64,000 nt of DNA, taken from Malacoraja senta (taxonomy: Eukaryota). The notes below the pieces were generated by a model. That model searched no databases and was not told the origin of the DNA. It saw only the letters and a list, made by a program, of their open reading frames with translations. Positions 38,359-56,900 of the stretch are shown here, one piece after another. Both the position numbers and the translations under genes were made by a program. Where the stretch lies: positions 1,552,001 through 1,616,000 of the forward strand of contig CM075996.1 in the NCBI GenBank assembly GCA_038087875.1, read 5' to 3'. The stretch's first letter is position 1. Every line of letters begins with the position of its first letter.

Positions 38359-39807
38359 CTAGACCAGGTGCGGACCCGTTGGACCCGTCCCCCACGGCAA
38401 TATTCCACCACTCACCCATAGCCCCCAACCGCGCGGGCGCGGCTGAGGGGTTCCCGTTGTGACACCAGAGATTACCATTGAGTCACGGCAACCCTCCATC
38501 AACTGCGCCTCTTCCCATCCCTCTTCCTACCTCTATCCTCCTCCATTCCCCCTCATCCCCCAGCACTCCCTCCCCCTCCTCTTCACCCTCCCTCTTCTTT
38601 TCCCTCTCCTCCTCCCCTCCCCCACTCCCTCCCTCACCTCTACCTGCCTCTCCTTTCCCCTATTCTCAGTCACTCCGTCCCTCCCTCCATAACCCCTCTC
38701 CCTGCTCCCCACTCCTCACCTCTCCCCCATCCCACTCCCTCTCCTTACAACAATATAACAAATCTCTCATTGTACTGGGTGCTCTGTCATTTGGTAACAT
38801 TTTAACAGGTAGGACAAGTTTTAAAGTGAAAAGTTTGATTATTTTAAATGAAAAGCTTATTTTTTAAAGTTTAAAATGTGAATTAGAGATTAGAGAGATT
38901 CCTTTATTTGTCATTCAGACCTTTCGGTCTGAACGAAATTTTGTTGCCTGCAGTCATACATATAATAATAAATGACAAAACACACAATAAACACAAATTA
39001 ACATCCACCACAGTGAGTTCACCAGGCACCTCCTCACTGTGATGGAGGCAAAAGTCTTAAAGTCTCTGTCTCTTCCCGCTTTGTTCTCCCTCTGCGCTGA
39101 GGCGATCCAGGCTTCTGATGCTGTGGCCCCGCCGGGCGACGGTAAGCCAGTCCAGCGGCCGAATCCGTGCTCCGCGACGGGCCGGCTCAAACTCCGCGGC
39201 CCGGGGTGGTCGAAGCTGCCGAAGCTGCCGCCCTCCAGTCCAGCGGACGCAGCTGTAGTTGCGGGAGCCCCAGAAAAACAGGTCACCCACCTGTGACCTG
39301 CGCGCTCCCGACGATGTCGTCCACTGGGCCCGCGGCCGAGCCTCCGGATTCAGGTCGCCACCAGTGTCCTCGGTCGCCATCGCCGGAACGCCACCGCAGC
39401 CCGGTATTGTAAAATAAAACATCAATCTGAATTGAACGCTGCTGTGTTTTTTAAAACAGATTTTAAAAATGTAAATGAGATCCCATTGTGATGTCATGAG
39501 GGAGTGGAACACTGCTGACGGGCAGTTTATGTAAATGAGATCCCATTGTGACATCATAGCTGGTAACTGTCAGTGCAAGTTTAAGTGATTTTTGTCAAAC
39601 TGGATTTTGAAAAGTTTAAAATGTGAATAACTTGTAAAATATACCATCAATCTGAACGAAATTTGATACACCACACACCAGGACAACGGTGAGTAAGGTG
39701 GATCAAAAATTGTAGCGCTATCGTGTACCGTTTTGGCATAATTTCAGGATCACATGGGCACAGACAGAATCACAGAAATAGAAACAAACAAGATGAGAGT
39801 TTTAGTA

Positions 39808-39872: not shown

Positions 39873-39873
<1 letters not shown>

Positions 39874-40276
39874 TAATAAAATATGCAAAAGGGTAATGAT
39901 GATAAAGGAAACATGCCATTGGTAGCTGTGGGCTAGGTGAAAACGAGTTACAGACAATGAGACCTATTTGAGACGACTTTGAACCTGGACTAATGACTTG
40001 GGAGGGGAGGGATGGAGAGAGAGGGAATGCAAGGGTTACTAGAAGTTAGAAAAATCTATATTCATACCACTGGTGTATAAGCTGCCCAAGTGAAATATGA
40101 GGTGGTGTTCCTACAATTTGTGTTTACCTCACTCTGACAATGGAGGAGGCCCAGGACAGAAAGGTCCTGTGGGAATGGGAAGGGGAATTAAAGTGTTTGG
40201 CAACTGGGAGGTAGGTTTGCGTAATGGTCTGGGCTGTGTCCACAACTCTGCAATTGTTTATGTCTCTGTGTTTCAG

Positions 40277-40335
40277 CTGGCGGGAGATGCAGGTGGGTGA
40301 CGAGGCTTGCGCTCAGCTCGAGGATGAGCTGCTCT
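40277..40335 (+). CDS. First identified coding exon (ATG at 40287): MQVGDEACAQLEDELL-F
   Basis: Acceptor tgtctctgtgtttcag|, donor t|gtaagt at 40336. The phase-1 T joins TT of the next exon to give Phe, so EDELLF-CEEC parallels PRDM9 DDDYLY-CEMC. The frame is open to the exon start, so a further upstream coding exon cannot be excluded. Confidence 0.75.
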
Positions 40336-43300
40336 GTAAGTATGTGCAACGCTTGCTCCATATTCTGGGGCAACGACAGCAAACACTCAGCGGGTCAGGC
40401 AGCATCCGTGGAGAGAGATACAGAGTTAACATTGGAAAGAGAGGAAAGCAAGTTGTTTATGAGTTTCAGAGAAGGTGGGTGGAGGGATTGACGAGATAAA
40501 GGGAATATCTTTGGGTGGCACAGTGGTGCCGTGGGTAGAGCTGCTGCCTCGCAGCGCCAAAGACTCGGGTTCCATCCTGACCGTCTGTGTATAGTTTGCA
40601 CATTCTCCCTGTGACTGTGAGGATCTCCTTTGGGTGCTCCAATTTCCTCCCACATCCCAAAGTGCAGGTCTATTGGTTAAATGGCAAGCTTATCGGTTAT
40701 ATATATATAAGCAAGAATATATATATAAGCAAGAATTTCATTGTCCTATCAGGGACACATGACAATAAACTCACTTGAACTTGATATATACTGTATACAT
40801 ACATATACATATACATACACACACATATATACACACACGCACACATATATATATACACGCACATATACACACACACACACACACACATATATGTAGTGTG
40901 TTTATGTATTATATATAGATATAAACAAACAATAATAGTGCAAAGTCAAAAAATAGTAAGATTAAACGAGAACTTACCAGTTTGAAGTTTGATCTGTATT
41001 TTATGAGGAGTTACGATGAGGGATTACGTGAAGAACCCGTCCAGCACGCATGCGCGGCATACTTCAAAGCAGCGGTGTGGAATCACAGGAAACACAATAA
41101 TTGAAATAAACATAGTAAAGAAAAGGAGAACTAAGATACCAGTTGATCTCTATAATTGAGGGTGGGAGCGGAGGGCACGTAATCCCTCATCGTAACTCCT
41201 CATAAAATACAGATCCAAACTGGTAAGTTCTCGTTTAACCTTACTATTTTACTTCGGAGTCACGTGAGTGACTACGTGAAGATTTTAAAGCTCTGTGATT
41301 TCAAACCGTGTAACAGTTCATACTTCACTCGCTGCCGAAGTCATTCAAGGGAGGAAGTATGTTATCATGAATCTGTTTGTAAACAATAATGGTATTTATT
41401 AAACAATAACAAAAGAAAAATGCTCCCCCGGGCTTAAATTATATATTTGCAGATTCGAAAACTCTTTCTGCAAATAACACAGGTTCTGCTAGCGGCTTGT
41501 TGTAGAACGTTTGGAACGTTTTCTCCATGGACCACCCCGCTGTAGCCAGGATGTGGTCCAGTGGTACGTCCATCCTTTTAGCCGCCGATGTGGATGCTGC
41601 ACTGGTGGAGTGAGATGTATATACGTCAGTATCTACTCCACAGCTCCCAGTACCTGCTTGAGCCATTTTGAGATGGTTTGGCTCGACACCTGAGCATGAG
41701 GTTTCTTGTGGCTGACCCATAAAGCTTTTTCTCTCCCTCGGGAATCTCTTGTTGTGTTGATGTAAGTGAGTAGGTGAGTCATGACACACAACCGTGGGTC
41801 AGGTGGGTATGCCCGGAAATCCATAACTAGGCCTGAAATTCCTGGCCTGCTCTGCTTTACCAGCTCCTGAATGGTGAATGAGACCCGGTCTGGTGTTATA
41901 ACCATGTTGTCCAGTCGCAGTAATTGGAGGGACTGGACTCTTTGTGCTGAGACTAGTGCCATCAGCATGACCGTTTTCAGGGTTAGCTGTTCCAGGATGA
42001 GAGACCTGGCTGGTGACCATCCCCTTAGGTATGTCAGGACCACACTGACATCCCAGATTTGGGTTACCTAGGTCTAGGGGGGTTGGAGTTGAATATACCC
42101 CTCATGAGTTTGATCACCAGCAGGTGAGACCCTATGGCCTGTTGTCCTGGTACTTGTTTTAAGTAGGCTGACAGAGCACTTCTGGCAGTATTGATGGCAC
42201 TGTAGCTCAGTCCTTCATTATGGTGAAGGCCAGCCAGGAACTCCAGTACATTGGTTATGGTTGTAGATGAGTATGTTGTCCCAGTATTCGAGCAGTATCT
42301 TTCCCACTTCCTGATGCTCGATAGGTATTGTTTCCTGGTGGACATACGATGGGACGCTGTCATCGTGTTGATGGTCCTGTCAGACAATCCCAGGCCCAGC
42401 AGTGGTCTTTTCATAATCTGCAACCCAGTAGGTTAATTTTGTCATGGCATGGATGACTTATGCCTGATACCGGGTGAGTCAATAGGTCTGGGCTACTGGG
42501 AAAGGTCATAGGAGTTTCGATGACCATGTCGAGGACCACTGGGAACCATGGCTGTGTAGGCCAGTGGGGTACTATCAAAATACCTGAAGCAGAGTCCATC
42601 TGTATTTTGCGTAGTACCCTACTGATGAGGCAGAAGGGGGGAAAAGCATAAAAGAAATAGTTTCTCCAGTTCAGCGCGAATGCATCTATCGCTGCTGCCT
42701 CAGGGTCTGGTTCCCAGGCAACATACATTGGTACCTGGTGATTTAGTCTGGATGCAAAGAGATCGATATCTGGTGTGCCATATTGGTTTGTAATTTTAGC
42801 AAAAGCTCTAGGATGTAACCCATTCGGTGTTATCATTGAATTTGCGTGACCTGGTGTCTGCCACTGTATTTAGCTTACCTGGTAGGTAAGTTGTTGATAG
42901 CCAAATATGTCTATCGACACACCATTGCCAGATTTTGTTGACCAAATTGTCACATGATATCGATTTTATTCCGCCCATATGGTTAATATAGGCCACCACC
43001 GTGGTATTATCAATCTGTAAACGAACATGCAAATGGTGCATATTCGTAGAATATGCTTTTAAACCATAAAACGCACCCAACATTTCCAAATAATTTATGC
43101 CCAGTGTTTGTAGTAAAGATGATTCTAGGTTAGTCCATCTACCACCTGTGCAGGATATGTTATTAGTTGCTCCCCAGCCTTGAGCACTGGCATCTGTTTG
43201 TATAGTTAATGTTGGGTTATTGATGATGATAGGGCTGGAACTATGCCAAATGTGCTCTATCCACCACTGTAACTCTGATATAGCTTCAAGGGGTAATTTC

Positions 43301-45899
43301 ATGGTTCGGTCAAAGTGACCTGCATGTCGTTTTAACGCCTGTACTTTTGCCCTTTGTAGGTTTTGATAGTGCAGGGGTCCAAATTGTGTACCTGGAAATG
43401 CTGCTACCATTTTGCCAATTACTCTTGCCACTTGTCGGATGGTTGGTCGATTGCTAACCATTAAATTGTTACACGTCTGTGCCAATTCTGCTGCTTTACC
43501 TTTTGGCAACGTTACAGACATGTGGACTGAGTTAATTGTGAATCCCAGATAGTCCATAATTGTGGATGGCGTCAACTTAGATTTATCTGGATGTAAGACA
43601 AATCCCAGGGTTTCAAACAATTGTTTGGTAGCTAATGCAGCTGATTTAGGCAACTCCATGGTTTTGCCTACTATTAGATCATCAAGATATGCCATGACAA
43701 TATGTCTCTGTTTTCTTAATGTTGCCAAGGCTGGTTTTAATATCTTGGTAAATAGTCTTGGGGCTGATGTTAACCCATTTAGGCAGCGCTGTAAACTGCC
43801 ATAGTTGCCCCATCCAGGTAAATTTCAGGTATCTGCGATGATCCTTTTGAATGGGTACTGTATAGTAGGCATCTTTTAAATCAATGCTTGCCATAAAGAA
43901 TCCTTTGGAAATCAGTTGTTTGGCAGTTACAAATGTTTCCATTTTGAAATGTACATACTTAACAAAGGTATTTAGTGAGGTTAAGTCAATGATGATGCGA
44001 CATGCACCATCTTTTTTGTTTTTGGTAAATATATTTGAGACAAATTCCAAAGGTTCATGTTTGGATTTCTCAATGATACCCTTTGTAAGTAACCTCACCA
44101 GTTCTGCTTGACCCTCTAGTTTCTCTTTGACTGAGAGGGTAAAGACCCTTTGGGGTATATGCTGAACTGGTGGCATATTTTCTTGAATGAACTCTATTTT
44201 GTATCCACGAATACTGTTAAGTATATAACTATCATTCATGACAGACCTCCATGCTTCAATGAACAGGTGTGATCTCCCCCCTGTTAGTACAGTTCCCCCA
44301 CTTTTTATATGCTGGTAGGAACCAGACCCACCTACCTCCATAGTTATGGGAGTGTTCATTGCTTCTGTTTCTTCATCCGTCGTTGTACTGCTGGATGTAC
44401 TGCTGGTTGGGGGTGGCGCATTTTCCATGGGGTCCGCTCTGGGCCCTGGCCTAAAAAAGGCTTTTGGGGATGGTATGCGGACCCCGAGCTTTCACCAGTC
44501 CCATAAGTTTGACGTCGACTGGTGGACGCGGTGGGGTACTGCCGTCTGGGTTGTGTGGGTCTGCTCGTTCCGGGGCCTGCCCTCATGAGGCCGAATGCTT
44601 TGGACTCTTCCTCCAGGTCTTTCACTTGTTTTGTCAAGTCCTTTCCAAATAACAGGATCTGTGGCTCTGAGGCCGGTGTTTTACACAGTCCTGCATATTT
44701 GGGATTGAGGGCAGATCTTATTATCTCCTTGCGGAGGTTGTTTATCTCATATTGAGTGTTGCACAGCAGAGCCAGAGTGTCTTGCTGGTTGGTGGTCATA
44801 TCCACCCCATCCACGGAACGAGCATAGGATGTTATCCCTGTCGTCAGGAGCTTGAGGATACGCTGTAATTTTAGCTCCTGGTTCCGGATACTCTGTCCAA
44901 CATACCCCCAGATTTGGCTGTTAACGGCCGGTACGTTGAGTGAACTTCAGTTCTCCAGAGGCGAGTAGAGTTCTAGTGCCTCATTGACTATCTGTTCTTG
45001 TAGGGGTTTGACAGGTGGTTAATGCTGGCCGCCAGTTTTGGCTGCAACGGCCGCCCTGCTCGTGGTGTAGCCACGTAGCGATTCACCACACCCAGCAGCT
45101 CTTCCTGGTCCTGTACCCCAAGCGTACTCCCGATATCTTCGGCCAATGACCCCTGTTCCTGGCCAGCCCAGCCCTGGTCGCCAACGCTGCCCTCGGCTGA
45201 GGGGGAAGCGATGGCCAGTGCATTGTAAGGCACTGATGTGGGAGTGCCTGAATTCCCTTGGCGAGACTGCTCCAGCTCCCGAAGCAAGTCTTGCTGGAGC
45301 ATTTGCTCCATGAGCCTTTCCATGCGGCTCAGGTGGCTACCTCTGCCGCTCTCAGGCGGAGAGTCCTCCTCATCGGAGTTATCAGATATAACCGGCCGGT
45401 CAGTTTTTCGTCTTGATTTACCTCCAGCCCGCTGCTGTTGGTCAGGCTGAGCTAGCGGTACTGGGCTCGGCTCGGTCTCAATGATTGTGGACCGCAGCAT
45501 GTGCGGTCCAGGTGCCGCCTCTCGCCCCCCACTGATGGGACACTCCCGTTCTGTTGGAGTCAAACGGGGGGGGCGGTCTTTTTCCCTTGCCGTGCTTTGC
45601 TCATTTTTCCAGCTTCTTCAACCTGGAATTCACAAAGCAGAGCAAAGCTTCCTAAATACGACCTCAGAGTAAGTACTTACCTGATGGTCCGCTTTTTAAA
45701 ACTTGTAGCAGGAACGCCTGTACTCCCGTCCGTCGCTGTTGCACTGCGTGAACGCTAATGTCGCGCATGCGTGCTGGATGGGTTCTTCACGTAGTCACTC
45801 ACGTGACTCCGAAGTATAAACAAAAAATAATAGTGCAAAGTCATATACATATACATACACACACATATATACACACACGCACACACATATTAATACACG

Positions 45900-45970
<71 letters not shown>

Positions 45971-48900
45971 TGTGTTTATGTATTATATATAGATATAAAC
46001 AAACAATAATAGTGCAAAGTCAAAAAATAGTAAGATTAAACGAGAACTTACCAGTTTGAAGTTTGATGTGTTTTTTATGAGGAGTTACGATGAGGGATTA
46101 CGTGAAGAACCCGTCCAGCACGCATGCGCGACATAGTTCAGAGCTTATTTGGAGGTTGTAGTGTTTAATAGCCTGGTGGCCGCAGGGAAGAAGCTGCTCC
46201 TGAACCTGGATGATACAATTTTCAGACTCCTGTACCTTCTTCCCGATGGCAGGGGTGAAATGAGAGTGTGGCCAGAGTGGTGTGGGTCTCTGATGATGCT
46301 GGCTGCATGTTTCAGCTAATAGATTTTTCTGTAAATATTTGAATTTGTAGTTTTCTTCTCCATGTAATGTGAGCCTCTAATGGGCATCCACGCACGGCGT
46401 TAAATCTCCTTCGTCTGTTCCAGTTTGTGAAGAATGCCGGCTCTACTTCCGGGACTCGTGCCCACACCACGGAGCGCCCACGTTCGTGCCGGACAGGATG
46501 GTCCTGGAGCGCGAGCCGTCCCGAGCCCTGCGTACACTGCCCGAGGGGCTGGCAGTCAAGGAGCGACGGCAGGGCGGTCTCGGCGTCTGGTGCACGCTCA
46601 CTGTCGTCCCGCGTGGCTGCATTTTCGGCCCGTTCGATGGAGACGTCCTGACAGACAGGAACGACTGCACGGTGTACTCCTGGGCGGTAAGGACATCTTT
46701 ACCTCCTGAAGTCTTGCCTGGTGAACCTGACGCTGGGCCACAGTCCCATGTCTCAAGAGTCAAGATTGTTTAACCTGTTCAGTGCCATCCCCGAGTATAT
46801 TCGGGTCAATGCCAATAGTTTAAAAACAACTTGGCAGTGAACAGTGTAGGAAGGAACTGCGGATGCTGGTTTAAACTGAAGATAGACACAAAAAGAAGGA
46901 GTAACTCAGCAGGACAGGCAGCATCTCTGGAGAGAAGGAATGGGTGACGTTTTGGGTCGAGACCCTTTTTCAGTCTGAAGAAACGTCACCCATTCCTTCT
47001 CTCCAGAGATGCTGTCTGCCCTGCTGAGTTACTCCAGCTTTTTGTGTCTATCTTTGGCAGTGAACAGGGAAATTGTCATAGGTACCAGTGTTGGAACAAT
47101 GACATTGTTACTTGCTGTAGCTTCACGGGCCAGTAAATGCAAAAACAAACATAAATATACAGTGATCAATAATACAATAAATTATACTAGGTAATCATAA
47201 TAGTACTAAACCAGATTCTGTAGTATATCCACCACTGATTTTCTGGCAACTAGTAGGCTGGATCCCACTTTAATCTGGACAAATAGGCGAATTGACAGTT
47301 CAAATTTGCCCTCGACGGCCGGCGCTCTGGAACTTCAGCCCGGTCAGAGCCGGCAGATCCTTTGACACAGCCGACTTCTGATGCCGACTTGCAGGCTTGT
47401 ATCTCGGCCCCACCAAGGCTGTAATATCGGCGGTGAACCGGTCCAACCAAAGACACAGTCCATAGAAGATCACAGTTGCTGAGGTTAGTGTTGTGCAATG
47501 TTCAAGAGCCTGATGGTTGTTGGGAAGAAGCTGTTCTTGAACCTGGTGGTCACGGCTCTCAGGCTCCTGTGCCTTCTTCCCCATGGTAGCAGCCAGATGA
47601 GAGCATGGCCTGAGTGTATGAGAGGTGTGGGTCTCTGATGATGTTACCTGCCAACTCCAACCTTGTGAAAAGAGAATCGGAAATAGTTCCACCTGCGATC
47701 TTCTTCTCTTTCAGTTACGAGAAAATGGATCCTATTATTACATGGACGCTTCCGATGAGACAAAAGCCAACTGGATGAGGTATGGTGGGGGGGAGATGGA
47801 TTGGATGACACACAGTTAGTCTACAGCTTCAATCTATCTGCCTACATTCAATACAATATTTTGGTTGTGAATTACTACCTGCCAGTTTGTCAATGTCAAG
47901 TGTCGGACATCACTTGCCTGAAGTCTCCCTTGTGTCATCAATCCAATTCAGCCAAGGTGGACATTTCAGTCTGAGTTCTGAACTGTAGCCATTCATTTAC
48001 ACACATTTCACTGATCATTTATTTCCTGCTAAGAACTTCTCAGCCGCTCTAATGTTTGGGCACCCACACAGAGACTGATGGAACGATTTAAAGTTACAAT
48101 CGAAGATAGACACAAAGTGCTGGAGTAACTCAGCCGGGCAGGCAGCATCTCTGGAGAGAAGGAAATGGGTTTCTTCAGACTGAAGAAGGGTCTCGACCCA
48201 AAACGTCACCCATTCCTTCTCTCCAGAGATGCTGCCTGTCCCTCCAGCATTTTGTGTCTTTCTTCGATTTAAACCATCGTCTGTAGTTCCTTCCGACACG
48301 TTTTAAGGTTACAGTTGTACAAGAGGTTGGTGAGGTGGCGTTTGGAGTATTGTGTTCAGTTCTGGTCACCCTGCTATCGGAAGGATGTTGTTAAGCTGCA
48401 AAGATTGCAGAGAAGATTTACGAGGATTTTACCAGGACTCGAAGGCCTGAGATATATGGAGAGGTTAGACAGGCGTGGACTTTATTCCCTGCTGCACAAG
48501 AGGTTGAGAGATCTTATAGAGGTGTATAAAAACATCTAAATTGCCCCCAATGGAGTGGATGAGAAAGTGGCATAACATTAGAACTAGTGTGCATGGTGGT
48601 TGAAGGTGGGCATGGACTCGATGGGCCGAAGGACCTGTTTTCATGCTGTATCTTTTAATCAATCAAAAAAAAACAGTTTTAAGCTTTATAATGGAAAAAA
48701 AAAGAAAATGCTGGAAAGACTCAGCAGGTCAGGCAAGGTCGGTGGAGAGAGAAATTGTTCGTGTTCCAGGTCTGGGACATTTTTGCCTCTGTGTCTGTGC
48801 AATGGTTAGGGTGTGGGCCACATATAAAGAATGTGAAAGAATTAGCCAAAAATTGTCTTTGAGTTGGCAGTCCTGGGTTCACTTATGTAGGGTTGGCATG

Positions 48901-51900
48901 AAGTTTGACATCTCATGCAGAATAGTTTGCAAAAGCACACTGCAGATCCCTAAATTACCCTCTCCACACGTCGATAATTAATTACTGTCTGTAGCCCTTT
49001 GCTCCCTAGCACCATTCTATTAATTGCCATACTTGAGTCAACTTTTTCACCATAAATTCACGTGCTAACATTTAAGTTGTCAAAGCAGTCCTAAGGTCAG
49101 TGCGACTTAGAATTTGCAGCATTGCTTCCCCACTCCTAATTAGTTGTGTGTCTGTGTATTGCTAAGGATTTGAGGGGATTAGCTGCAGGGAGAGGTTGGA
49201 CATGCTATGACTATGTTCCTTGGACCGCAGGAAGCTGAGGTTTCTTATAGAGAAACAAGGAACTGCAGATGCTGAAGAGATGAAATGCTGGCTGAAAGAA
49301 GGGGGGGTTAAAAGGGACATGGGGACCTCAGGTGATGCATGTATGGAGCAGGTGAAGGAACAGAGTGATTGGGGTGGTGGGGAAAATGTGTGAGCATTTA
49401 CGTGAGGGGGGCAGAGGAAAGAGATTGAGGTATATTATCTGCAAAAGGGTCCCAACCCGAAACGTCACCTATCCATGTTCTCCACAGATGCTGCCTGACC
49501 CGCTGAGTTACTCCAGCACTCTGTGAAACGTCACCTATCCATGTTCTCCACAGATGCTGCCTGACCCGCTGAGTTACTCCAGCACTCTGTGAAACGTCAC
49601 CTATCCATGTTCCCCACAGATGCTGCCAGACCCGCTGAGTTACTCCAGCACTCTGTGAAACGTCACCTATCCATGTTCCAGCAGCATCTATAGAGCGAAG
49701 GAAATAGGCAACGTTTCGGCCCGAAACCCTTCCGGGTTTTGGCCCAAAACGTTGCCTATTTCCTTCAGGGTTTCGGCCCGAAAGGTTGCCCATTTCCTTC
49801 GCTCCACAGATGCTGCCTGACCCGCTGAGTTACTCCAGCACTGTGTCTGTGAAACGTCACCTATCCATGTTCTCCACAGATGCTGCCTGACCCGCTGAGT
49901 TCCTCCAGCACTCTGTGAAACGTCACCTATCCATGTTCCCCACAGATGCTGCCTGACCCGCTGAGTTACTCCAGCACTCTGTGTCTTTTTTGGGGCGCAT
50001 TATCCTCCCTCCTACACTGAGCCTCAGCTCTCTCTGCCACTTGGATTGATGGTGTAAATACAAGGCAATGTGGAATTGGCTGCAATCACACACAACTGTT
50101 TGAAGGTAATGGGGGAGGAGAAAAAACGAAGCCAACTGGTTTTCCCCATTGAGCTGGCGCTGTGTGGAGCGGAGGAACACAAACTGGTGTGCCCTCAAGT
50201 CCCTGTCTTTGCCTCACAGATACGTGGCCTGTGCCTCTAGCGAAGAGGAACATAATATGACGGTGTTCCAGTATCGCGGCAAAATCTACTACCGGGCCTG
50301 CCAGACCATCGCCGCTGGCAATGAGCTCCTGGTGTGGATCGGTGAGGAATACGCCAGGACCTTGGGGCTGAAGTTGGGTAGGTCCTAAACAATCAATCAC
50401 TCACTGGGACGTTACTGTCATGTGTACCTACGTACAGCGAAAGTCTGTTCTTTTGGCATACTGCTCAGTGGCAATCCTACTATAGATTTGGTATAATCAT
50501 ACTGAGTGTAAAACAGTAGACCACACTGAGTCCGTACACAAGAGCCGCCACGTTTTAGGTGCCACCTTAGACTCCAGTCCACAGAAGATCACCGTTGTTG
50601 GGGTTAGTGTTGTGCAGTGTTCAAGAACCTGATGCCTGGTTGTTGGGAAGAAGCTGTTCTTGGCTCATTTTTCCTTCGTCCCGATGGTAGCAGCGAGATG
50701 AGCGCGTGGCCAGGGTGGTGCGGGTCTCTGATGATATTGGCCGCCATTTTGAGGCAGCGCCTCCCTTGATGTTGGGGAGGTCAGTACTCGTGGTGGACCG
50801 GGCATCCACCACTCTCTGTGGTCTCCTTCAAAGTTCAGCGTTCAAGTTGGCGAACCAGGCTCTAATGCAACCAGCATGCTCTCTACTATACACCTGGTGT
50901 TCACCTGTACAACTAGGCGGCAGTCCTGAACTACCATCTACCTCACTGGAGACCCTCGGACTATCTTGCACTAAACATTATGCACGTGATTCCCTTTATC
51001 GTGTACAGTGTGGAGGGCTCGATTGTAATCATGTATTGTCTTTCCGCTGACTGGTTAGCACGCAACAAAAGCTTTTCACTGTACCTCGGTACACGTGACA
51101 ATAAACTGAACTCAGCTCAAACTCAAGTTAGCAAAATTGGTGAGTGAGTCACACTGTGTGTTAACCTCGCCTGTAGAGTGTAGCGATACAGCATAGAAAC
51201 AGGCCCTTCGGCCCACCATGTCCATGCTGACCCTCGATCACCAGTTCTATGTTAATCGCACTTTCTGATCCACTCCCTACACACTAGGGGGCAATACACA
51301 GAGGGACAGTTAACTTACAAACCCGCATGTCTTTGGGATGTGGGAGGAAACCGGGGCACCCGGAGGAAACCCACGCGGTCACAGGGAGAACGTGTGAACT
51401 CCGTACAGACAGCACCTGAGGTTGGGATTGAACTCGGGTCTCTGAGGCTGTGAGGCGGCAACTCTATTGGCTATAACACTGCTGACCCGTGAATCTGTAA
51501 TGATATTAAAGGTGTATTTGGGATTGGAATTAGCTGCAGACAAATGGAGAGGCCAGTAAATCCGATGAATGAATAAAACATTCTTGGATCTATGATGGTT
51601 GGGAGAAAGCTGAACCTCTTTCTCTTTTTATTAGGTGAACATTTTAAGTATGAGTTTGGAGAGAAAGAGCTGCTTATGAAGTTGTTTCAGGACCTCCAAA
51701 CCAAGGTTCCCAAAGAGATGTCAAGTCACAAGAAAGCCCAAGGGCAGCATAACTGCAGGGACTTTGTGGCCTCCATCATCCAATCCCACGAGAGCAGCCT
51801 GAGGCGAGAGGTCCCTGGCGCCCTGCGGGAGGGCACGAGGAACAACCTGGTCAGCCTGGGCCGAGCGCAGAGCCGTTACTGGACCTTCTTCGGTTTTCAG

Positions 51901-53646
51901 GGAGACGCCTTGGGCCGCATCTTGGACAAGACCAAGATCATCTGCAAGCTGTGCGGGGTGAGGTTGTCGTACAGCGGCAACACCACCAACTTGAGGCAGC
52001 ACCTGATCTACAAGCACAGGCAAGAGTACAACCAGCTGGTGGGAGGGACGGCCGCACCGCAGAAGGAGACCCAGGACCACCCGGCCAGGACCTCCATGGT
52101 GATGACCACCCCTGTCGGGAGAACCACCAGGGCCATCTCAGATTTCATTGTGACCGACCTTCTGCCACTGAGGACCATTGAGGGGGAGGGTTTTGTCCAG
52201 ATGATGAGCGTGTTGGAGCCCACCTACAAGATCCCCACCGTGGCCTTCTTTGCTCAGACAGTGCTACGGGACATGTACGCCCAGGCCAAGCTGAGGGTGA
52301 TGGATTCCATGAAGTCGCAGAGGCACTGCACGGTCAGCATTGACCTGTGGAAGCACGAGCAGTCACGCTCCTACGTCACGGTCAGTGCCCACCAGGTGGA
52401 CAGCTCCTTTGACCTCAGGATCTACGTGCTGTCCACCCGGGCGGTCGGCGAGGAAGGCACGGCGGAGAAGGTCCGGGCGGCCCTGCTGGACGTCGCCAAC
52501 GAGTGGAGCATCGGGGAGCGGACCTGGCTCTCCATCATGGCCAGCAACGTGGACGTCAGGATGGCGGTCACCAAGCTGGGCTGGAAGACTCTGCCATGCA
52601 TCGGGCACGCTCTGCAGAACTGCGTAGACTCGGCACTGCAGCAGCCACCCATCCTGCGCACGTTGGACCGCTGCAAGAAGCTGATGGAGAACGTGTCCTC
52701 CTTTCCGGCTCTGAGCGACAAGGTGGGCTCCAGCGAGGTCCTCCACAAGTTCCAGTCCAGGACGTTTCCCGCAGGCAGCGTGAAGTGGTTCAGCACCTAC
52801 GATCTGCTGCAGAACCTTCAGGACCATCGTTCGTTCCTGGATGGTCTGAGCGAGGAGCACGAGGGTGAGGGGTTGGGTCTGAGAGCCGAGGACTGGCAGG
52901 TGGTCCAGGAGATCACGGGCATCCTGAAGCCCCTGGCCATCGCCACGTCCACCTTGACCAAGGAACGTTTCTCCAGCCTGTCGCTGGTGAAGCCGGTGGT
53001 GACCAGCCTGATCTACAAGCACCTGGCCACCAACGAGGGCGACTCGGAACTGGCCCACGACGTCAAGCAGGCGATCCGCACCGACCTGGACCAGTGGTAC
53101 GCCGACCGCGAGGTCAACCGCGTGCTCAACCTGGCCTGCGCTCTGGACCCGCGCTTCCGGGGCTTGGACTTCCTCAGCCAGGTGGAGAAGGTGGAGACCT
53201 TCCACGCCCTGAGGCAGGAGACCGCTCAGCTGGCGAGACTCCAGCCGCAACCTGGCGACCCCGAGATGTCCAGCTGCGGCCCCGAGCCGGCCAAGAAGCC
53301 CCGGCCGGACTCAGGCATCGAGTTCCTGCTGGGCGACCTGTGCAACGTGAGGAGTGCCTCGGTCAACTCGGTCAACCAGCAAGCGGAGCAGGAAATCAGC
53401 GGCTTCCAGACCAGCGAGGCGGCCGCGCTCTGCCAGGACCCCCTGCAGTGGTGGAAGGCCCACCACACCCAGTACCCGCTCCTCGCCACTGCCGCACGCA
53501 AGCTGCTGGCAGTGCCCGCCACCGCCGTGCCCGGCACCTGGATCTTCACCCAAGCCGGTCAGGATGTCTACGGCAAGCGCTCAGACCTGGCACCGGAGCA
53601 CGTGGACATGCTGGTGTTTATGCACGGAAACCACAAGTCAGCTTAA
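40287..53646 (+). CDS. Spliced gene: PRDM9/7/11-like zinc knuckle + PR/SET domain fused to ZBED1-like hAT transposase-derived module (predicted 848 aa; join 40287-40335,46424-46686,47715-47779,50220-50377,51635-53646)
   Basis: All four introns are GT-AG with pyrimidine-rich acceptors. Exon lengths 49+263+65+158+2012 = 2547 nt = 848 codons + TAA, and phases 1/0/2/1 match. The translation shows PR-domain motifs followed by BED finger and hATC motifs. Confidence 0.9.
41439..42423 (-). pseudogene. DIRS tyrosine recombinase, frameshifted; H-x-x-R reads HSTS
   Basis: N-terminal SYSAINTARSALS, then LVSAQRVQSL and HST(S)AAS...AGWS..TF..FY, split over three frames. Confidence 0.88.
42411..42836 (-). 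pseudogene. DIRS methyltransferase-like (MT) domain
   Basis: DIDLFASRLNHQV, YAFPPF and LIVPHWPTQPWFP motifs directly after RNase H. Confidence 0.85.
42808..44428 (-). pseudogene. DIRS reverse transcriptase + RNase H, frameshifted near 43780
   Basis: RIIIDL..LN, SIDLKDAYYTVPI, YLDD, TDASAQGWG, INYLEM, QIDN and NTVADTRSR motifs. Confidence 0.92.
44356..45604 (-). pseudogene. DIRS ORF1 (gag-like), disrupted
   Basis: ORF pieces 44988-45563 and 44356-44814. LALL......IN.LR..... and LLFG.DL motifs and the position upstream of RT fit DIRS ORF1. Confidence 0.7.
46024..46134 (-). mobile_element. Isolated second copy of the DIRS 3' terminus
   Basis: Near-identical to 40950-41060. Confidence 0.85.
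46424..46686 (+). CDS. Zinc knuckle (CEEC...CPHHG) and N-terminal PR/SET domain exon
   Basis: ccag| acceptor and gcg|gtaagg donor. Translation: CEECRLYFRDSCPHHGAPTFVPDRMVLEREPSRALRTLPEGLAVKERRQGGLGVWCTLTVVPRGCIFGPFDGDVLTDRNDCTVYSWA. Confidence 0.93.
47715..47779 (+). CDS. PR/SET middle exon: LRENGSYYYMDASDETKANWMR
   Basis: ttcttctctttcag| acceptor and ag|gtatgg phase-2 donor. The D-x-x-D...ANWMR motif is diagnostic of PR domains. Confidence 0.93.
50220..50377 (+). CDS. PR/SET C-terminal exon: YVACASSEEEHNMTVFQYRGKIYYRACQTIAAGNELLVWIGEEYARTLGLKL-G
   Basis: cctcacag| acceptor and g|gtaggt phase-1 donor. The ExNx..FQY..IYYR...ELLVWxGxEY motif of PR domains is present. Confidence 0.93.
51635..53646 (+). 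CDS. Terminal exon: ZBED1-like domesticated hAT transposase (BED finger ~51871-52017, CxxH motif, basic PAKKPRP putative NLS, hATC dimerisation domain ~53380-53640)
   Basis: tctctttttattag| acceptor, then an uninterrupted GC3-rich 2-kb ORF. SRYWTFFGF...CKLC...YSGNTTNLRQHLIYKH resembles the ZBED1 BED finger. LDPRFRGL and DPLQWWK..YP.LA..ARK.L..PAT are hAT motifs. Confidence 0.93.
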
Positions 53647-53986
53647 TCCACAGACAGAGATGCGGAGAGAGAGAGAGAGAGAGAGATGTCTCACATTCCA
53701 CGCTTCTTCTCCAGGCGATGGGAAGAAGCTCTGCTGGTAGCGTTCATTGCCCGGGTGGGCTGAGACCACGTGGATGGATGTCCCGGCTGCCACGTGATGC
53801 CGAGACCAGGGACCGGTTTGCTGCATGTCCATTGCCGCTGCAGTGGCACCCTATCTGCATCCAATCAGCCCGCCAGCATGCATTGGTCCCAATAGGTACC
53901 GCATGCCGTTCTGCATTTGGGCCATTCTTTGGAAAGTAAACCAACGTGTCACATACGTGACCATGTGTCATCACATAAAGTGATAC

Positions 53987-53992
53987 ATTAAA
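53987..53992 (+). terminator. Candidate polyadenylation signal ATTAAA
   Basis: A PAS-like hexamer about 340 nt after the stop codon; not verified. Confidence 0.3.
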
Positions 53993-56900
53993 AGATTCTT
54001 GCAAGAGATGAGCCTTATTCATTGCTATTTTCCTATCGACGGAACTATGATGCATGTCTGCTAAAGTTACTAACATTCTAGCTTTTTAAAATTCACAGAG
54101 TTTGTAAGATAGGTTATGAAAAGAAATGCTTCCGAGTGAGGTCACACACGTGGCCAGTCATATTTGACCTCTGACCCTAAACAAACATTGTCAGCATAAC
54201 AGAAAAATTTCATTTGCTAAACTTCGAAATAGCAAACTAGGAATCATATACATAGTGCAAAACAATATACCTTCAATGCTTTCAGAATTAGAAGAATTGT
54301 ATTCCACAGTTTTTCATATTTTTGGCACACACGTAACTAGGAATGGGCCATTTCCTCATGCACGTCAGTACCCAGGTCCATCCCGCATCTCCTCAACCCG
54401 TTCAGCCATAGGCTCACAGAGACAGGAGACAGGCCCTTCGGCCCATCACGTCTGCACCAACCATCAACCACCTGTTCATACCAACCCAATGTTATCGTAC
54501 AATCCCCACTCCATGGGAAAGCACATCAGCTTTTCCTAAGATGGACACAAGTGCCAGAGTAACTCAGCGGGTCAGGCAGCATCTGTGGAGAACATGGATA
54601 GGTGACGTTTCACAGAGTGCTGGAGTAACTCGGCGGGTCAGGCAGCATCTCTGAAGAACATGGATAGGTGACGTTTCACAGAGTGCTGGAGTAACTCAGC
54701 GGGTCAGGCAGCATCTGTGGAGAACATGGATAGGTGACGTTTCACAGAGTGCTGGAGTAACTCAGCGGGTCAGGCAGCATCTGTGGAGAACATGGATAGG
54801 TGACGTTTCACAGAGTGCTGGAGTAACTCAGCGGGTCAGGCAGCATCTGTGGAGAACATGGATAGGTGACGTTTCACAGAGTGCTGGAGTAACTCAGCAG
54901 GTCAGGCAGCATCTCTGGAGAACACGGATAGGTGATGGTTTGTGTTGGAATAATCAGGGTGTGACTTGTCCTTAATTATGTTGGTGGCCTTGCCGAGGCA
55001 GCATAAGGTGTAGATGGAGTCAATGGAAGGGAGGTTGGTTTGTGTGATGGTCTGGGCTGCGTCCACAATTCTCTGCAATTTCGTGCGGTCTTGGGTGGAG
55101 TTGTTCCCAAACCGTGCTGTGATTCATCCCAATAAAATGGTTTATACTGCATGTCTGCAGAAGTTGGCGAGAGTTGTTGGGGACATTGCCGAACTTCCTA
55201 TGCCTACTAGGGAAGCAGAGGCTATGTGAGCGGTGAAGGTGGAAACACAGTCGCAGGCTCCACAAGAATGGGACTGGCGCTGTTGATCGATGAGGCTCGA
55301 CAGGGCAGGATGTGATGATCGCAGGCCAGATGGCTATGGGCCAATTCTGGGATTAACCTGGCGATTACTGGCCGAGGAGACTGTGGCATTCTGGGGTTCC
55401 AGCTGCCTGCATCCACCACATAAACATCGGTGACATTTAGCCAGGAGTGGCAATTGTACCAATAATCTCATTAGTATCAGTCGTTATAGAACAGCGGAAC
55501 AGGGCCTCGAGTCCAAGTCATCTACGCCAACCAAATTCTGAAGAAGGGTCTCAACCCGAAACATCACAGATTCCTTCTCTCCAGACATGCTGCCTGACAC
55601 GCTGAGTTACTCCAGCTGTTTGTGTCTATTTGCTGTTTAAACCAGCACCTGCAGTTCCTTCCTGCACTACAAACCAAGTTATCTGTCTGAAGAAGGGTCC
55701 CAACCTGAAACATCGCCTATCCATGTCCTCCAGAGATGTTGCCTGACCCGCTGAGTTACTCCAGCTACTTTGTGCTCCATGGAAGATTCCACTATCTGCA
55801 GTTTCTTGTGTCTTTAACTGCTTTTCATCAGCTATTTATATGTTGCAGATAATATATTTTTCTGTAAATAGTTGATTTTGTAGTTTTCTTCTTCATTTAA
55901 TGCATCCTCTAATGGGCATCCATACCTGGTGGACATTCTCAGTGGGTTATCTGTAATGTTGTATTTGTTTCTAGTCTGTGTTTACCATCTTTCTGTTGAG
56001 ATCCTCAGAGCAGATTTAGTCGCAGTTCCCAGTGGAGAGGATGTAGACAAATCATTTCTTTAAAATATAGAACTTTTAAGTGGATAAAAGCAAATAAAAA
56101 GAACTCCATTTTTGCTGTAAACTTGGAATACAGAAAATCCCTGAATGTATTAGATGTCAGGCAGAAAGAGAGAATGTTTCACCCCAATGGTTTTGCAACA
56201 GAGTTGGAAGAGATGTATTAGTTTATAAGTCACCTGTTCATAAAACCAGTCCTTTATTCATCTCACTCTCTGCATATTCCACACACTTACCTGGGTCTGC
56301 GGTTACTTTATCAACTAAAAACAATCCCTGGTGCCAATTCCCTTTTGCTGGCTTTCTTTGATTTAATCACCGACCAAATCAGTCCTGATTTCTCACTAAC
56401 TACATGCGCATCTTAACGATAGAATAGGGCGGCAGCGGGTAGAGCTGATGCCTCACAGCGCCAAAGACCCGGGTCTCTGTAAGCGCTGTAAGCACTGTAA
56501 GGCAGCAATGCTACTGCACCACTGTGCCGCTTTGTGTCTATCTTTAGAAAGACAACCTTTGTTCACGCCACGAAGGGTCCTGAACCGAAAAATCACCTAT
56601 CCATGTTCTCCACAGATGCTGCCTGACCCGCTGAGTTACTCCAGCACTCTGTGAAACGTCGCCTACCCATGTTCTCCACAGATGCTGCCTGACCCGCTGA
56701 GTTCCTCTAGCACTCTGTGAAACGTCACCTATCCATGTTCCGGCAGCATCTATGGAGTGAAGGAAATAGGCAACGTTTAGGCCCGAAACCCTTCCGGGTT
56801 TCGGCCCGAAACGTTGCCTATTTCCTTCAGGGTTTCGGCCCGAAAGGTTGCCCATTTCCTTCGCTCCACAGATGCTGCCTGACCCGCTGAGTTACTCCAG

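What the first reader, a model, noticed from the sequence alone, without database searches (positions are those of the whole stretch)
40287..53646. PRDM9/11-like PR/SET domain spliced in frame to a ZBED1-like domesticated hAT transposase
Seen: five exons with canonical splice sites and matching phases give an intact 848-aa ORF of zinc knuckle, PR/SET domain, ~80-aa linker, BED finger, transposase core and hATC domain. The ORF track shows only disconnected pieces. The 2-kb last exon is intact and GC3-rich, and I saw no TIRs, while the coding transposon relics around it are truncated or frameshifted. Known: PRDM proteins normally use C2H2 arrays, ZBED1/DREF is a hAT-derived transcription factor, and SETMAR is a SET-mariner fusion. 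As I recall, a long PRDM11 isoform also carries a different (ZNF862-like) hAT-derived region. Inference: this is a host-transposase fusion chromatin factor that I cannot match to any named, characterised gene. Uncharacterised orthologues in other fishes are plausible but unchecked.
Basis: partly seen in the sequence, partly recalled or inferred. Interest (0 to 1): 0.92.

Follow-up and report, generated by a model that had tools for sequence, protein, structure and literature searches.

The report
Ancient PR/SET–hAT transposase fusion gene
This skate locus is a real five-exon gene that joins a PRDM9/PRDM11-type histone-methyltransferase-like domain to a tamed hAT transposase; the same gene occurs from sharks to reptiles under a misleading automatic name, and I found no paper that describes it.

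Summary
Five exons with GT-AG introns and matching phases give one 848-aa frame: short N-terminus, zinc knuckle, PR/SET, linker, BED finger, hAT RNase-H-like core and hATC domain. Contigs of two public runs from close relatives join exon 4 to exon 5 at the predicted junction, and one joins exon 2 through to exon 5. The last exon is single copy in its own genome, has no flanking inverted repeats, and has lost two of the three catalytic DDE residues.

The gene is not skate-specific. Of 57 database relatives, 51 carry both the PR and hAT parts: cartilaginous fishes, coelacanth, lungfish, amphibians, squamates, turtles, tuatara, sturgeon and eels. None is a mammal or a bird. Most are auto-named "ZBED1-like".

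In PR-domain trees the family is a third clade beside PRDM9 and PRDM11. The junction and BED finger are the most conserved parts. The PRDM9 catalytic tyrosine Y357 is isoleucine in 21 of 21 members.

Most likely it is a dimeric, sequence-specific chromatin factor, not a transposase. Novelty is moderate, because the gene is already annotated and may already sit in a published fusion-gene table that I could not read.

The parts
39000..39499 (+). CpG-rich stretch about 0.8-1.3 kb upstream of the start codon; a candidate promoter, unverified
   Evidence: GC 0.586 and CpG observed/expected 0.96 in this 500-nt bin. No transcript start is shown.
40287..40335 (+). Exon 1 coding part: MQVGDEACAQLEDELL plus the first base of the next codon (phase 1). 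An alternative in-frame ATG lies at 40260.
   Evidence: Donor CTCT|gtaagt. The N-terminus is conserved in P0001, P0005, P0021 and P0030.
46424..46686 (+). Exon 2: PR zinc knuckle and the first third of the PR/SET domain. It holds the Y276-equivalent codon, TTC (Phe), at 46633-46635.
   Evidence: Acceptor ccag|TT and donor GCG|gtaagg. Pfam Zn_ribbon_PRDM4 and PRDM2_PR positions 5-48. PDB matches to PRDM11 3ray at 4.7e-19 and PRDM9 4c1q at 5.4e-18.
47715..47779 (+). Exon 3: middle of the PR/SET domain (LRENGSYYYMDASDETKANWM plus 2 bases)
   Evidence: Acceptor tcag|TTA and donor GAG|gtatgg. PRDM2_PR positions 52-71.
50220..50377 (+). Exon 4: last third of the PR/SET domain. The Y341-equivalent TAC (Tyr) is at 50290-50292 and the Y357-equivalent ATC (Ile) at 50338-50340.
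   Evidence: Acceptor acag|A and donor TTGG|gtaggt. PRDM2_PR positions 73-122, E 3.1e-18.
51635..53646 (+). Exon 5: linker, BED finger, hAT core, hATC domain and the TAA stop. It is one intact 670-codon exon derived from a hAT transposase.
   Evidence: Acceptor attag|GT. Open frame of 689 aa. Single copy in the genome. Contigs join 50376 to 51634.
51635..51699 (+). Ultra-conserved junction motif G-EHFKYEFGEKELLMKLFQDLQ, directly after the splice site
   Evidence: Model residues 161-200 are on average 96% identical to the window's protein in 16 species from sharks to turtles, the highest value of any 40-residue block.
51871..52020 (+). BED zinc finger (residues 79-128 of the exon-5 protein)
   Evidence: Pfam zf-BED 4.5e-10. 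C, C, H, H are kept in 21 of 21 family rows and the block is 86-88% identical. The match to human ZBED1 BED 2ct5 has E 9.6e-14 with 24 of 53 residues identical.
52138..53316 (+). hAT RNase-H-like catalytic core with its helical insertion, catalytically broken. The first D is kept (52342-52344), the second D is Ser (52543-52545). Bounds are approximate.
   Evidence: Alignment to Hermes. The AF2 model of the Amblyraja orthologue has pLDDT 85-94 here. Foldseek finds Hermes at TM (target) 0.66-0.69.
53437..53631 (+). hATC dimerisation domain. The codon at the place of the catalytic Glu is Thr (53536-53538).
   Evidence: Pfam Dimer_Tnp_hAT 1.5e-13. Hermes alignment. 0 of 21 family rows have Glu there.

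Best explanation
This is a genuine, single-copy, five-exon host gene. It was already present in the last common ancestor of jawed vertebrates.

Origin (inferred). A PRDM9/PRDM11-type N-terminal module (zinc knuckle plus PR/SET) came to be spliced to the near-complete coding exon of a ZBED1-like (Ac-type) hAT transposase. This is the 'transposase capture' route.

What the transposase half now does. It no longer cuts DNA, because two of the three DDE residues are gone in every member (shown). It is kept as a DNA-targeting and self-association module. The almost invariant BED finger would read a fixed DNA motif (inferred). The hAT core and hATC region would make the protein a dimer or higher oligomer (supported by a model only).

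What the PR/SET half does. It is the effector brought to those sites. Its catalytic status is open. Y357 of PRDM9 is Ile in all members and Y276 is Phe in cartilaginous fishes. I therefore put about even odds on a non-catalytic or weak, altered-specificity PR domain that recruits partners, as in most PRDMs. I put about one in four on a robust PRDM9-like methyltransferase.

In PR-domain trees the gene is a third paralogue beside PRDM9 and PRDM11, not the orthologue of either.
For: Gene structure. Four GT-AG introns, matching phases and one 848-aa frame. The three PR exons rebuild the PR profile in order.

Splicing. X1 record 5 places 135 letters on exon 4 and 203 on exon 5 in one contig. X3 record 18 places 262 letters on exon 2, leaves 64 unplaced letters (exon 3 is 65 nt), then places 159 on exon 4 and 1007 on exon 5. 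The two runs come from two studies and two coded organisms, and the contigs are about 95-97% identical to the window.

Copy number. Exon 5 matches itself at 100%, then 26% and 23% elsewhere in the 1.94-Gb genome. Exons 2 and 4 are 100% identical only at this locus.

Orthologues. There are 57 hits at E<=1e-10, and 51 carry PF21549 (PR) with hAT domains. They comprise 12 cartilaginous fishes, 1 coelacanth, 1 lungfish, 15 amphibians, 17 squamates, 2 turtles, 1 tuatara, 2 sturgeon/paddlefish, 4 eels/bonefish and 2 unnamed. Identity to the window's protein is 96.9% for Amblyraja. For Xenopus it is 76.9% in the PR part and 56.1% in the rest.

Third paralogue. In the careful tree of 56 rows the family scores 100/99, PRDM11 100/100 and PRDM9 98/93. 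The quick tree of 104 rows gives the family 99 and PRDM11 100. Clade labels come from PDB matches and source names. The named hits also list a PRDM9-like protein for Rhinoraja (P0085) and a prdm11 for Chiloscyllium plagiosum (P0099) beside the family members P0002 and P0006.

Dead transposase. The first D is kept in 18 of 21 rows. The second D is present in 0 of 21 and the E in 0 of 21. There are no flanking TIRs.

DNA binding and dimer. BED C, C, H, H are kept in 21 of 21 rows and the block is 86-88% identical. The Hermes fold is recovered at TM 0.66-0.69. In the homodimer model of residues 400-854, the score is 0.47 against a best control of 0.01 among 3 controls. On microbes the mark was reached by 21 of 30 proteins solved as pairs of one chain and by 0 of 23 solved as single chains; on eukaryotes by 17 of 29 and 0 of 30. 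The runs agree in at least 55% of contacts, and the partner's pLDDT is at least 71. The interface falls on the invariant SGIEFLLGDLC and KPLAIATS..LVKPV..SL motifs.
Against: - No listed run is on record as RNA. X3 is flagged 'probably DNA', so its intron-less contig could in principle be a retrocopy in that relative.
- The exon 1 to exon 2 junction was not seen in the rows shown.
- Expression in this species, DNA binding, dimerisation and enzyme activity are all untested.
- The dimer pass may reflect the model's memory of solved Hermes dimers.
- The AF2 model of the PR half is poor (pLDDT 30-68), so nothing structural can be said about the active site or about how the conserved linker packs.
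- dN/dS was not computed, because no orthologue DNA was at hand. Constraint is inferred from protein conservation only.
- Where the family sits relative to PRDM9 and PRDM11 is unresolved: with PRDM9 at 90/81 in the careful tree, with PRDM11 at 91 in the quick tree.
- Absence from mammals, birds and most teleosts rests on word-seeded searches that scored only some candidates.
Confidence: 0.85

Rival explanations
1. Same gene, but the PR/SET domain is a fully active PRDM9-like H3K4/H3K36 methyltransferase. An invariant BED finger aims it at fixed sites, making it a hard-wired counterpart of PRDM9.
For: The PR domain scores slightly better against PRDM9 structures than against PRDM11 (4c1q 5.6e-48 versus 3ray 4.1e-43), with 46% identity to 4c1q. 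The Y341 equivalent is Tyr in 21 of 21 rows. The Y276 equivalent is Tyr in 12 of the 20 rows that have a residue there. PRDM7 keeps H3K4me3 activity despite a Y357 substitution, according to passages of PMC5519329. The PR half is the more conserved half: 77% against 56% identity between skate and Xenopus.
Against: The Y357 equivalent is Ile in 21 of 21 rows, and the Y276 equivalent is Phe in 7 of 7 cartilaginous fishes and in Pogona. In the 227 PRDM9 orthologues of PMC5519329, substitutions at these tyrosines never occur in complete, presumably hotspot-directing PRDM9 genes. No assay exists.
Confidence: 0.25
2. It is the true orthologue of ZBED1/DREF. On this view the ancestral ZBED1 carried PR/SET exons, and mammals, birds and teleosts later lost them.
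For: NCBI names some members plain 'ZBED1' (Xenopus laevis, Mustelus, Pristiophorus, Microcaecilia). Human ZBED1 is the only BED-domain structure matched (2ct5, 9.6e-14, 24 of 53 identical). The family's BED scores better against it than the genome's other ZBED1-like gene does (4.4e-12 against 2.5e-8). No mammalian or avian family member was found.
Against: Within the family the BED block is 86-88% identical across about 450 million years, but only 45% identical to human ZBED1. PMC3606216 (passages) lists ZBED1 orthologues upstream of DHRSX in frog and lizard, lineages that also hold the fusion gene. I could not check whether those are different genes. I had no full-length ZBED1 sequence and no synteny data, so this is untested rather than rejected.
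Confidence: 0.1
3. Gene-model or read-through chimera: a small PR-only gene and a separate intron-less ZBED1-like gene happen to lie side by side.
For: Some database entries hold only the BED-hAT part. Six of the 57 hits lack the PR domain; several come from contigs of 2.7-5.9 kb, or are older Callorhinchus models.
Against: The phases match across all four introns. Contigs bridge exon 4 to exon 5. The same architecture appears in 51 of 57 hits from many independent annotations. The stretch spanning the junction is the most conserved part of the protein (96%). Exon 5 is preceded by a polypyrimidine tract and an AG, and has no conserved start codon of its own at the top.
Confidence: 0.03
4. A mobile or recently mobile hAT element that picked up host PR exons.
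For: The exon is of transposase origin and the region is rich in repeats.
Against: It is single copy and has no TIRs. Two of the three DDE residues are missing in all 21 rows. Family relationships broadly track vertebrate phylogeny.
Confidence: 0.01

Closest known systems
PRDM9 (and its primate duplicate PRDM7)
   Same: The zinc knuckle plus PR/SET module is homologous: 46% identity to the mouse PRDM9 structure 4c1q, E 5.6e-48. The boundaries of exons 2 and 3 and the 5' boundary of exon 4 are shared with this genome's PRDM9-like copies.
   Different: No KRAB or SSXRD match in the exon pieces scanned. No C2H2 array in the gene or the window. DNA binding is by a slowly evolving BED finger, not a fast-evolving zinc-finger array. 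Y357 is Ile, and Y276 is Phe in this species. It forms a separate clade (100/99). The donor of exon 4 lies about 13 codons further upstream than in the PRDM9-like copies.
PRDM11
   Same: A PR module of the same superclade (3ray, E 4.1e-43). Both lack a C2H2 array. In PRDM11-clade proteins the PR module is also followed by other DNA-binding modules: Myb/SANT-like, BEN or zf-C17orf113.
   Different: A different, strongly supported clade (100/100 against 100/99). In the named hits Chiloscyllium plagiosum has both a prdm11 (P0099) and a family member (P0006). The C-terminal partner here is a whole hAT transposase.
ZBED1 / DREF (domesticated hAT, Ac family)
   Same: One BED finger, an RNase-H-like core and an hATC domain encoded in a single exon. 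The nearest Atlas clusters are 'ZBED1' and 'ZBED1-like'. The precomputed Pfam families on the hits are ZBED1_RNase-like families. The BED finger is 45% identical to human ZBED1.
   Different: It carries four upstream PR/SET exons. Orthology to ZBED1 is untested. A second conserved ZBED1-like gene in the same genome (C4, L002) is only 24% identical and keeps the second D and the E.
SETMAR (Metnase)
   Same: A histone-methyltransferase-type domain spliced to a captured transposase exon, with the transposase DNA-binding domain retained. This comparison rests on my own knowledge and on a mention in the Cosby preprint.
   Different: SETMAR is primate-specific, uses a canonical SET domain (not a PR domain) and a mariner transposase. 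This gene dates to the jawed-vertebrate ancestor and uses a hAT transposase.
Host-transposase fusion (HTF) genes of Cosby et al. (bioRxiv 10.1101/2020.05.07.082677; passages read)
   Same: It fits their definition and their model. The transposase domain sits in its own exon and is joined by splicing to host exons. They name SET among the host domains and say that 11.6% of fusions pre-date tetrapods.
   Different: The main text names neither PRDM nor ZBED1 (0 occurrences). Their gene list (Table S3) was not readable here, so I cannot say whether this gene is on it. Their screen did not cover fishes.

Membership tests
PRDM family (PRDM9/PRDM11 superclade) | PR/SET domain | tested here: met
   Exons 2-4 match PRDM2_PR positions 5-122 of 123 in order; exon 4 alone gives 66.1 bits against a cut-off of 27. 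PDB matches to PRDM9 and PRDM11 at 1e-43 to 1e-48.
PRDM family (PRDM9/PRDM11 superclade) | Zinc knuckle just upstream of the PR domain | tested here: met
   Zn_ribbon_PRDM4 at 3.8e-5, 23.8 bits, just under the 25.8 cut-off. The CEECRLYFRDSCPHHG stretch aligns to the knuckle of 3ray and 4c1q.
PRDM family (PRDM9/PRDM11 superclade) | C2H2 zinc-finger array (typical of PRDMs, absent from PRDM11) | tested here: not met
   No C..C-x12-H-x3-5-H pattern in any of the six frames of the window. No C2H2 family on exon 5.
PRDM9 orthologue | KRAB and SSXRD domains upstream of the PR domain | tested here: not met
   Only 16 residues precede the knuckle. No KRAB or SSXRD in the family's precomputed Pfam lists.
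PRDM9 orthologue | Three catalytic tyrosines Y276, Y341, Y357 (role taken from PMC5519329) | tested here: not met
   The window's protein has Phe, Tyr, Ile. Across 21 family rows the Y357 equivalent is Ile in 21, the Y341 equivalent is Tyr in 21, and the Y276 equivalent is Tyr in 12, Phe in 8 and a gap in 1. The numbering assumes that the PDB chain starts at residue 195; that assumption places Y276 at FGPY.
PRDM9 orthologue / PRDM11 orthologue | Falls inside that clade in a PR-domain tree | tested here: not met
   Separate clades: family 100/99, PRDM11 100/100, PRDM9 98/93. The quick tree shows the same split.
Active hAT transposon | Intact DDE catalytic triad | tested here: not met
   D, S, T at the three places in the window's protein. 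The second D is present in 0 of 21 rows and the E in 0 of 21.
Active hAT transposon | Terminal inverted repeats and multiple copies | tested here: not met
   No flanking TIR among 27 inverted pairs. One copy in 1.94 Gb.
Domesticated hAT / ZBED-type protein | BED finger, RNase-H-like core and hATC domain in an intact conserved frame | tested here: met
   Pfam. Hermes fold at TM 0.66-0.69. 42-89% identity across the 40 aligned relatives.
ZBED1 orthologue | Orthology by tree and by synteny with DHRSX (PMC3606216) | not testable with these tools
   No full-length ZBED1 sequence and no annotated vertebrate context were available. The only direct comparison is the BED domain, 24 of 53 identical to 2ct5.
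Host-transposase fusion gene (criteria of the Cosby preprint) | Transposase domain in frame with host domain, two or more exons, transcript support for the introns | tested here: met
   Five exons in one frame. The exon 2 to 5 joins are seen in contigs of relatives. The exon 1 to 2 join is supported only by orthologue models.
Host-transposase fusion gene (criteria of the Cosby preprint) | Purifying selection on the transposase part (dN/dS below 1) | not tested
   No orthologue DNA was available. Constraint is inferred from 56% protein identity between skate and Xenopus over 659 aligned residues.

The most novel reading that the evidence does not exclude
The protein is a hard-wired relative of PRDM9. 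An active PR/SET methyltransferase is aimed by a BED finger that has barely changed in about 450 million years at one fixed DNA motif. That motif might be a promoter element, or relics of the ends of its own parent hAT family. This would be a third, PRDM9-independent way of writing H3K4/H3K36 methylation at defined sites in non-mammalian jawed vertebrates. More broadly, PRDM9/11-type PR modules would be recurrent acceptors of transposon-derived DNA-binding domains: BED-hAT here, and Myb/SANT-like, BEN and zf-C17orf113 in PRDM11-clade proteins.
Probability: 0.18. Interest if true: 0.85.

Novelty: new member of a known kind. Interest (0 to 1): 0.58.

Why it matters
The finding adds an old, well-conserved third branch to the PRDM9/PRDM11 group. 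It would also be one of the oldest clear host-transposase fusions: a histone-methyltransferase-type domain joined to a whole hAT transposase, like SETMAR but roughly ten times older (the ages rest on general knowledge, not on a call) and kept in many lineages.

Public annotation hides it under the name 'E3 SUMO-protein ligase ZBED1-like'. Surveys of PRDM or ZBED genes can therefore miscount it.

Frogs and axolotl carry an orthologue, so function can be tested directly:
- which DNA motif the invariant BED finger reads;
- whether the PR domain still methylates histones with Ile in place of Y357;
- why mammals and birds appear to do without the gene.

It is not a new kind of system.

Tried and rejected
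Expression. No RNA holder was listed for exon 5. All 17 runs have a guessed or unknown kind, so nothing can be said about expression level or tissue. Contig depth was not used to rank anything. In X1, X2 and X5 the unique parts of intron 1 have next to no cover, but I do not count that as evidence.

Literature. Nine searches found no description of a PR/SET-BED-hAT gene (one search was a look-up of the PRDM9 catalytic residues).
- Passages read: PMC5519329, PMC9392472, PMC3606216, PMC11872487, PMC8290160, the Cosby preprint and the 2026 cnidarian PRDM9 preprint.
- A term search of PMC10027918 found no occurrences.
- The three supplementary files of PMC5519329 that are held as text contain no 'ZBED1' or 'BED domain'.
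- The published Cosby paper (DOI and PMC8186458) is not held. The preprint's Table S3 is closed, so the gene may be listed there.
- ZBEDX of PMC3606216 is a different gene: two BED fingers, syntenic with C7ORF29.

Other checks that led nowhere.
- Our own earlier notes: nothing for this genome or for these words.
- The C4 ORF (L002) as 'the real ZBED1': it is a conserved cartilaginous-fish ZBED1-like gene, 81-90% identical in chimaera, shark and ray. No tetrapod ZBED1 appeared among its 32 hits, so the orthology question stays open.
- AF2 of the full orthologue gave a poor PR half, so I made no active-site or linker-packing analysis.
- Synteny and dN/dS need annotated vertebrate genomes and orthologue DNA, which I did not have.
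- The weak alignment of the linker's first residues to PRDM9's post-SET stretch is too short to say whether the linker is of host or transposon origin.
- A polyadenylation signal search was uninformative. The first AATAAA on the + strand after the stop codon is at 55131.


Full report
**1. What is in the sequence**

They lie at 40287-40335, 46424-46686, 47715-47779, 50220-50377 and 51635-53646. Each intron starts with GT and ends with AG. Each acceptor is preceded by a pyrimidine-rich tract. The codon phases fit at every junction.

Joined by coordinates in a script, the exons give 2547 nt, which is 848 codons and one terminal stop.

Pfam places the three middle exons on consecutive parts of one PR-domain profile: positions 5-48, 52-71 and 73-122 of 123. 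A PR zinc knuckle sits at the start of exon 2. Exon 5 carries a BED finger (4.5e-10) and a hAT C-terminal dimerisation domain (1.5e-13).

Against solved structures, exon 2 matches PRDM11 and PRDM9 about equally (4.7e-19 and 5.4e-18). Exon 5 matches the Hermes transposase and the BED domain of human ZBED1.

Exon 5 has GC3 of 0.86, against intron GC of 0.45-0.49. Other long frames inside exon 5 are by-products of that GC content.

Exon 1 looked weak from sequence alone, but orthologues share its peptide.

**2. Is it spliced as predicted?**

No run is on record as RNA, and all run kinds are guesses. I laid four runs on window 34400-54300.
- One contig of X1 (organism A) carries 135 letters of exon 4 directly followed by 203 letters of exon 5.
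- One 1609-letter contig of X3 (organism B) carries exon 2, then 64 unplaced letters (exon 3 is 65 nt), then exon 4 and 1007 letters of exon 5. It has 115 further letters upstream of exon 2 (table 8).
- Contigs that stop exactly at the end of exon 2 and then continue with letters that do not fit the intron occur in X1 and X2.

The contigs are about 95-97% identical to the window, so they come from close relatives and not from this animal. X3 is flagged 'probably DNA', so a retrocopy in that relative cannot be excluded from this evidence alone. In the window's own genome, however, the gene exists once and with introns.

**3. It is an old, widespread gene**

A search with exon 5 found 57 proteins at E<=1e-10.
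- 51 carry a PR domain together with hAT domains and are about 750-960 aa long.
- Named sources are 12 cartilaginous fishes (skates, sawfish, electric ray, sharks, chimaera), coelacanth, lungfish, 15 amphibians, 17 squamates, 2 turtles, tuatara, sturgeon and paddlefish, and 4 eels or bonefish. The last group is very divergent, at about 30% identity.
- Two hits are unnamed.
- None is a mammal or a bird.
- Most are auto-named 'E3 SUMO-protein ligase ZBED1-like'; one cobra entry is called 'PRDM7'.

The window's protein is 96.9% identical to the Amblyraja radiata protein. Against Xenopus it is 76.9% identical in the PR part and 56.1% in the rest.

Because cartilaginous fishes, lobe-finned and ray-finned lineages all have it, the fusion was present in the common ancestor of jawed vertebrates. 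This is an inference from the distribution and from the family tree.

**4. A third paralogue beside PRDM9 and PRDM11**

An exhaustive profile search with exon 2 gave 298 hits at E<=0.001, with a gap after the first five. I scanned 77 of the 150 listed hits, those of 330 aa or more, against Pfam. I named twenty representatives by cluster look-up and checked two against solved structures.

Trees of the knuckle plus PR region show three well-supported groups:
- the BED-hAT family (100/99 in the careful tree of 56 rows; 99 in the quick tree of 104 rows);
- PRDM11 (100/100), holding squirrel PRDM11, shark and ray prdm11, and tarpon PRDM11;
- PRDM9 (98/93), holding KRAB/SSXRD/zinc-finger proteins and a clam PRDM9-like protein.

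Which of the two the family is closer to is not resolved. The two trees disagree and neither branch is strongly supported.

The named hits list family members beside other paralogues. Chiloscyllium plagiosum has a prdm11 (P0099) and a family member (P0006). Rhinoraja has a PRDM9-like protein (P0085) and a family member (P0002). Latimeria has a PRDM9-like protein (P0108) and a family member (P0011).

A side observation concerns PRDM11-clade proteins. They also carry varied DNA-binding partners after the PR domain: Myb/SANT-like, BEN and zf-C17orf113.

**5. The transposase half is tamed**

- Exon 5 is single copy. The next best matches in 1.94 Gb are 26% and 23% identical.
- No inverted repeat brackets it.
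- In the alignment to Hermes, the first catalytic Asp is kept, the second is Ser and the Glu is Thr.
- In a 21-row family alignment, the second Asp is present in 0 of 21 rows and the Glu in 0 of 21. The first Asp is kept in 18 of 21, with Glu in the three eel-group rows. Inactivation therefore pre-dates the family's radiation.
- An AlphaFold2 model of the Amblyraja orthologue, built with 40 relatives, is confident over the hAT core (pLDDT 85-94) but poor over the PR half (30-68).
- Foldseek recovers Hermes at TM (target) 0.66-0.69 and PRDM9 and PRDM11 PR domains at 44-46% identity.
- The hAT part belongs with ZBED1-like, Ac-type elements. Its BED finger is 24 of 53 identical to human ZBED1.
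- A second conserved ZBED1-like gene in the same genome (C4, L002) is only 24% identical. It keeps the second Asp and the Glu.

**6. What is conserved**

- The best-conserved 40-residue block of the whole protein spans the end of the PR domain, the splice junction and the first 22 residues of exon 5 (…ELLVWIGEEYARTLGLKLG|EHFKYEFGEKELLMKLFQDLQ). On average it is 96% identical to the window's protein in 16 species from sharks to turtles.
- The BED finger follows at 86-88%, with C, C, H, H kept in 21 of 21 rows. A variable spacer between them is 38% identical.
- The three PRDM9 tyrosines important for its catalytic specificities (Y276, Y341, Y357; their role is taken from PMC5519329) correspond to Phe, Tyr and Ile here. 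Across the family, the Y357 equivalent is Ile in 21 of 21 rows and the Y341 equivalent is Tyr in 21 of 21. The Y276 equivalent is Phe in all 7 cartilaginous fishes and in Pogona, and Tyr in 12 others.

**7. How it most likely works**

Shown: the protein cannot be a working DDE transposase, and both halves are under long-term constraint at the protein level.

Inferred:
- The invariant BED finger binds a fixed DNA motif.
- The hAT core and hATC region hold two or more subunits together.
- The PR/SET module is the effector delivered to those sites.

A homodimer model of residues 400-854 passed its controls.
- The score was 0.47 against a best control of 0.01 among 3 controls.
- On microbes the mark was reached by 21 of 30 proteins solved as pairs of one chain and by 0 of 23 solved as single chains. 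On eukaryotes it was reached by 17 of 29 and 0 of 30.
- The runs agree in at least 55% of contacts, and the partner's pLDDT is at least 71.
- The interface falls on invariant motifs of the family.
- Hermes dimers are solved, so the pass may show likeness only.

Whether the PR domain still methylates histones is open. The Ile at the Y357 place argues against PRDM9-like chemistry. PRDM7 shows that such a change need not abolish H3K4 methylation.

**8. Comparison with what is known, and novelty**

The gene works like the host-transposase fusions described by Cosby et al. and resembles SETMAR in concept. It is not a PRDM9 or PRDM11 orthologue and not an active hAT element. Its relation to ZBED1 proper is untested.

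Nine literature searches, and passages of the papers named under Tried and rejected, turned up no description of it. It is nevertheless already in RefSeq for dozens of species. It also meets the criteria of the Cosby screen, whose gene table I could not read. I therefore rate it a new member of a known kind, with moderate interest.

**9. Limits**

- No RNA of this species was available.
- No dN/dS, no synteny and no full-length ZBED1 sequence for a tree.
- Absence from mammals, birds and most teleosts rests on searches that score only part of the candidates.
- The window holds a 200-N gap at 32156-32355, outside the gene.

Noticed in passing
Own genome outside the window: loci L005-L013 (exon-2-like) and L015-L023 (exon-4-like), e.g. 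G000:C775:68926-69192 and 75876-76025: The genome holds at least 140 further matches to the knuckle/PR exon. Most are 40-45% identical, and most have open 107-aa frames. About 29 matches to exon 4 are 50-53% identical. Nearly all lie on small unplaced contigs. They are 79-92% identical to a Rhinoraja 'PRDM9-like' protein (P0085) and share the boundaries of exons 2 and 3 and the 5' boundary of exon 4. This looks like a massively amplified PRDM9-like gene family in skates. A 2026 preprint says that, where vertebrates have multiple full-length PRDM9 paralogues, only one retains all the hotspot-type features.
   Followed up: partly
G000:C3:35305490-35315166 (-) and G000:C3:35388713-35403089 (+): Two single-copy PR-exon pairs, 36-45% identical to exons 2 and 4, lie about 80 kb apart on one large contig. 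They are candidates for the skate's ordinary PRDM9 and/or PRDM11 genes.
   Followed up: no
G000:C4:63503555-63505465 (L002): An intact 713-aa open frame of a second ZBED1-like hAT gene. It is 81-90% identical in chimaera, shark and ray. The first catalytic Asp is Glu, but the second Asp and the Glu are kept. It may be another domesticated transposase.
   Followed up: partly
window 41400-45700, minus strand (intron 1): A frameshifted retroelement lies in intron 1. Overlapping ORFs of 119-338 aa include a reverse-transcriptase piece (RVT_1, 1.3e-7). The other pieces scanned match no Pfam family.
   Followed up: partly
window 36500-36999: A stretch with GC 0.72 but CpG observed/expected of 0.04, most likely a G/C-rich simple repeat. 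CpG-rich bins follow at 37000-37999 and 39000-39499.
   Followed up: no
window 49400-50000 and 54580-54960: Tandem repeats that read as the same peptide-like unit (…WIGDVSQSAGVTQRVRQHLWRT…). They run in opposite orientations on the two sides of exons 4-5. They carry very high contig depth in all four runs laid, so this is a common genomic repeat.
   Followed up: no
Proteins P0099, P0153 (shark and ray prdm11), P0097, P0093 (fish PRDM11), P0142 (Polymixia): PRDM11-clade proteins carry different C-terminal DNA-binding modules in different lineages: BEN in cartilaginous fishes, Myb/SANT-like in tarpon and other fishes, and zf-C17orf113 in Polymixia, where the protein is named 'zinc finger protein 862'.
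   Followed up: partly
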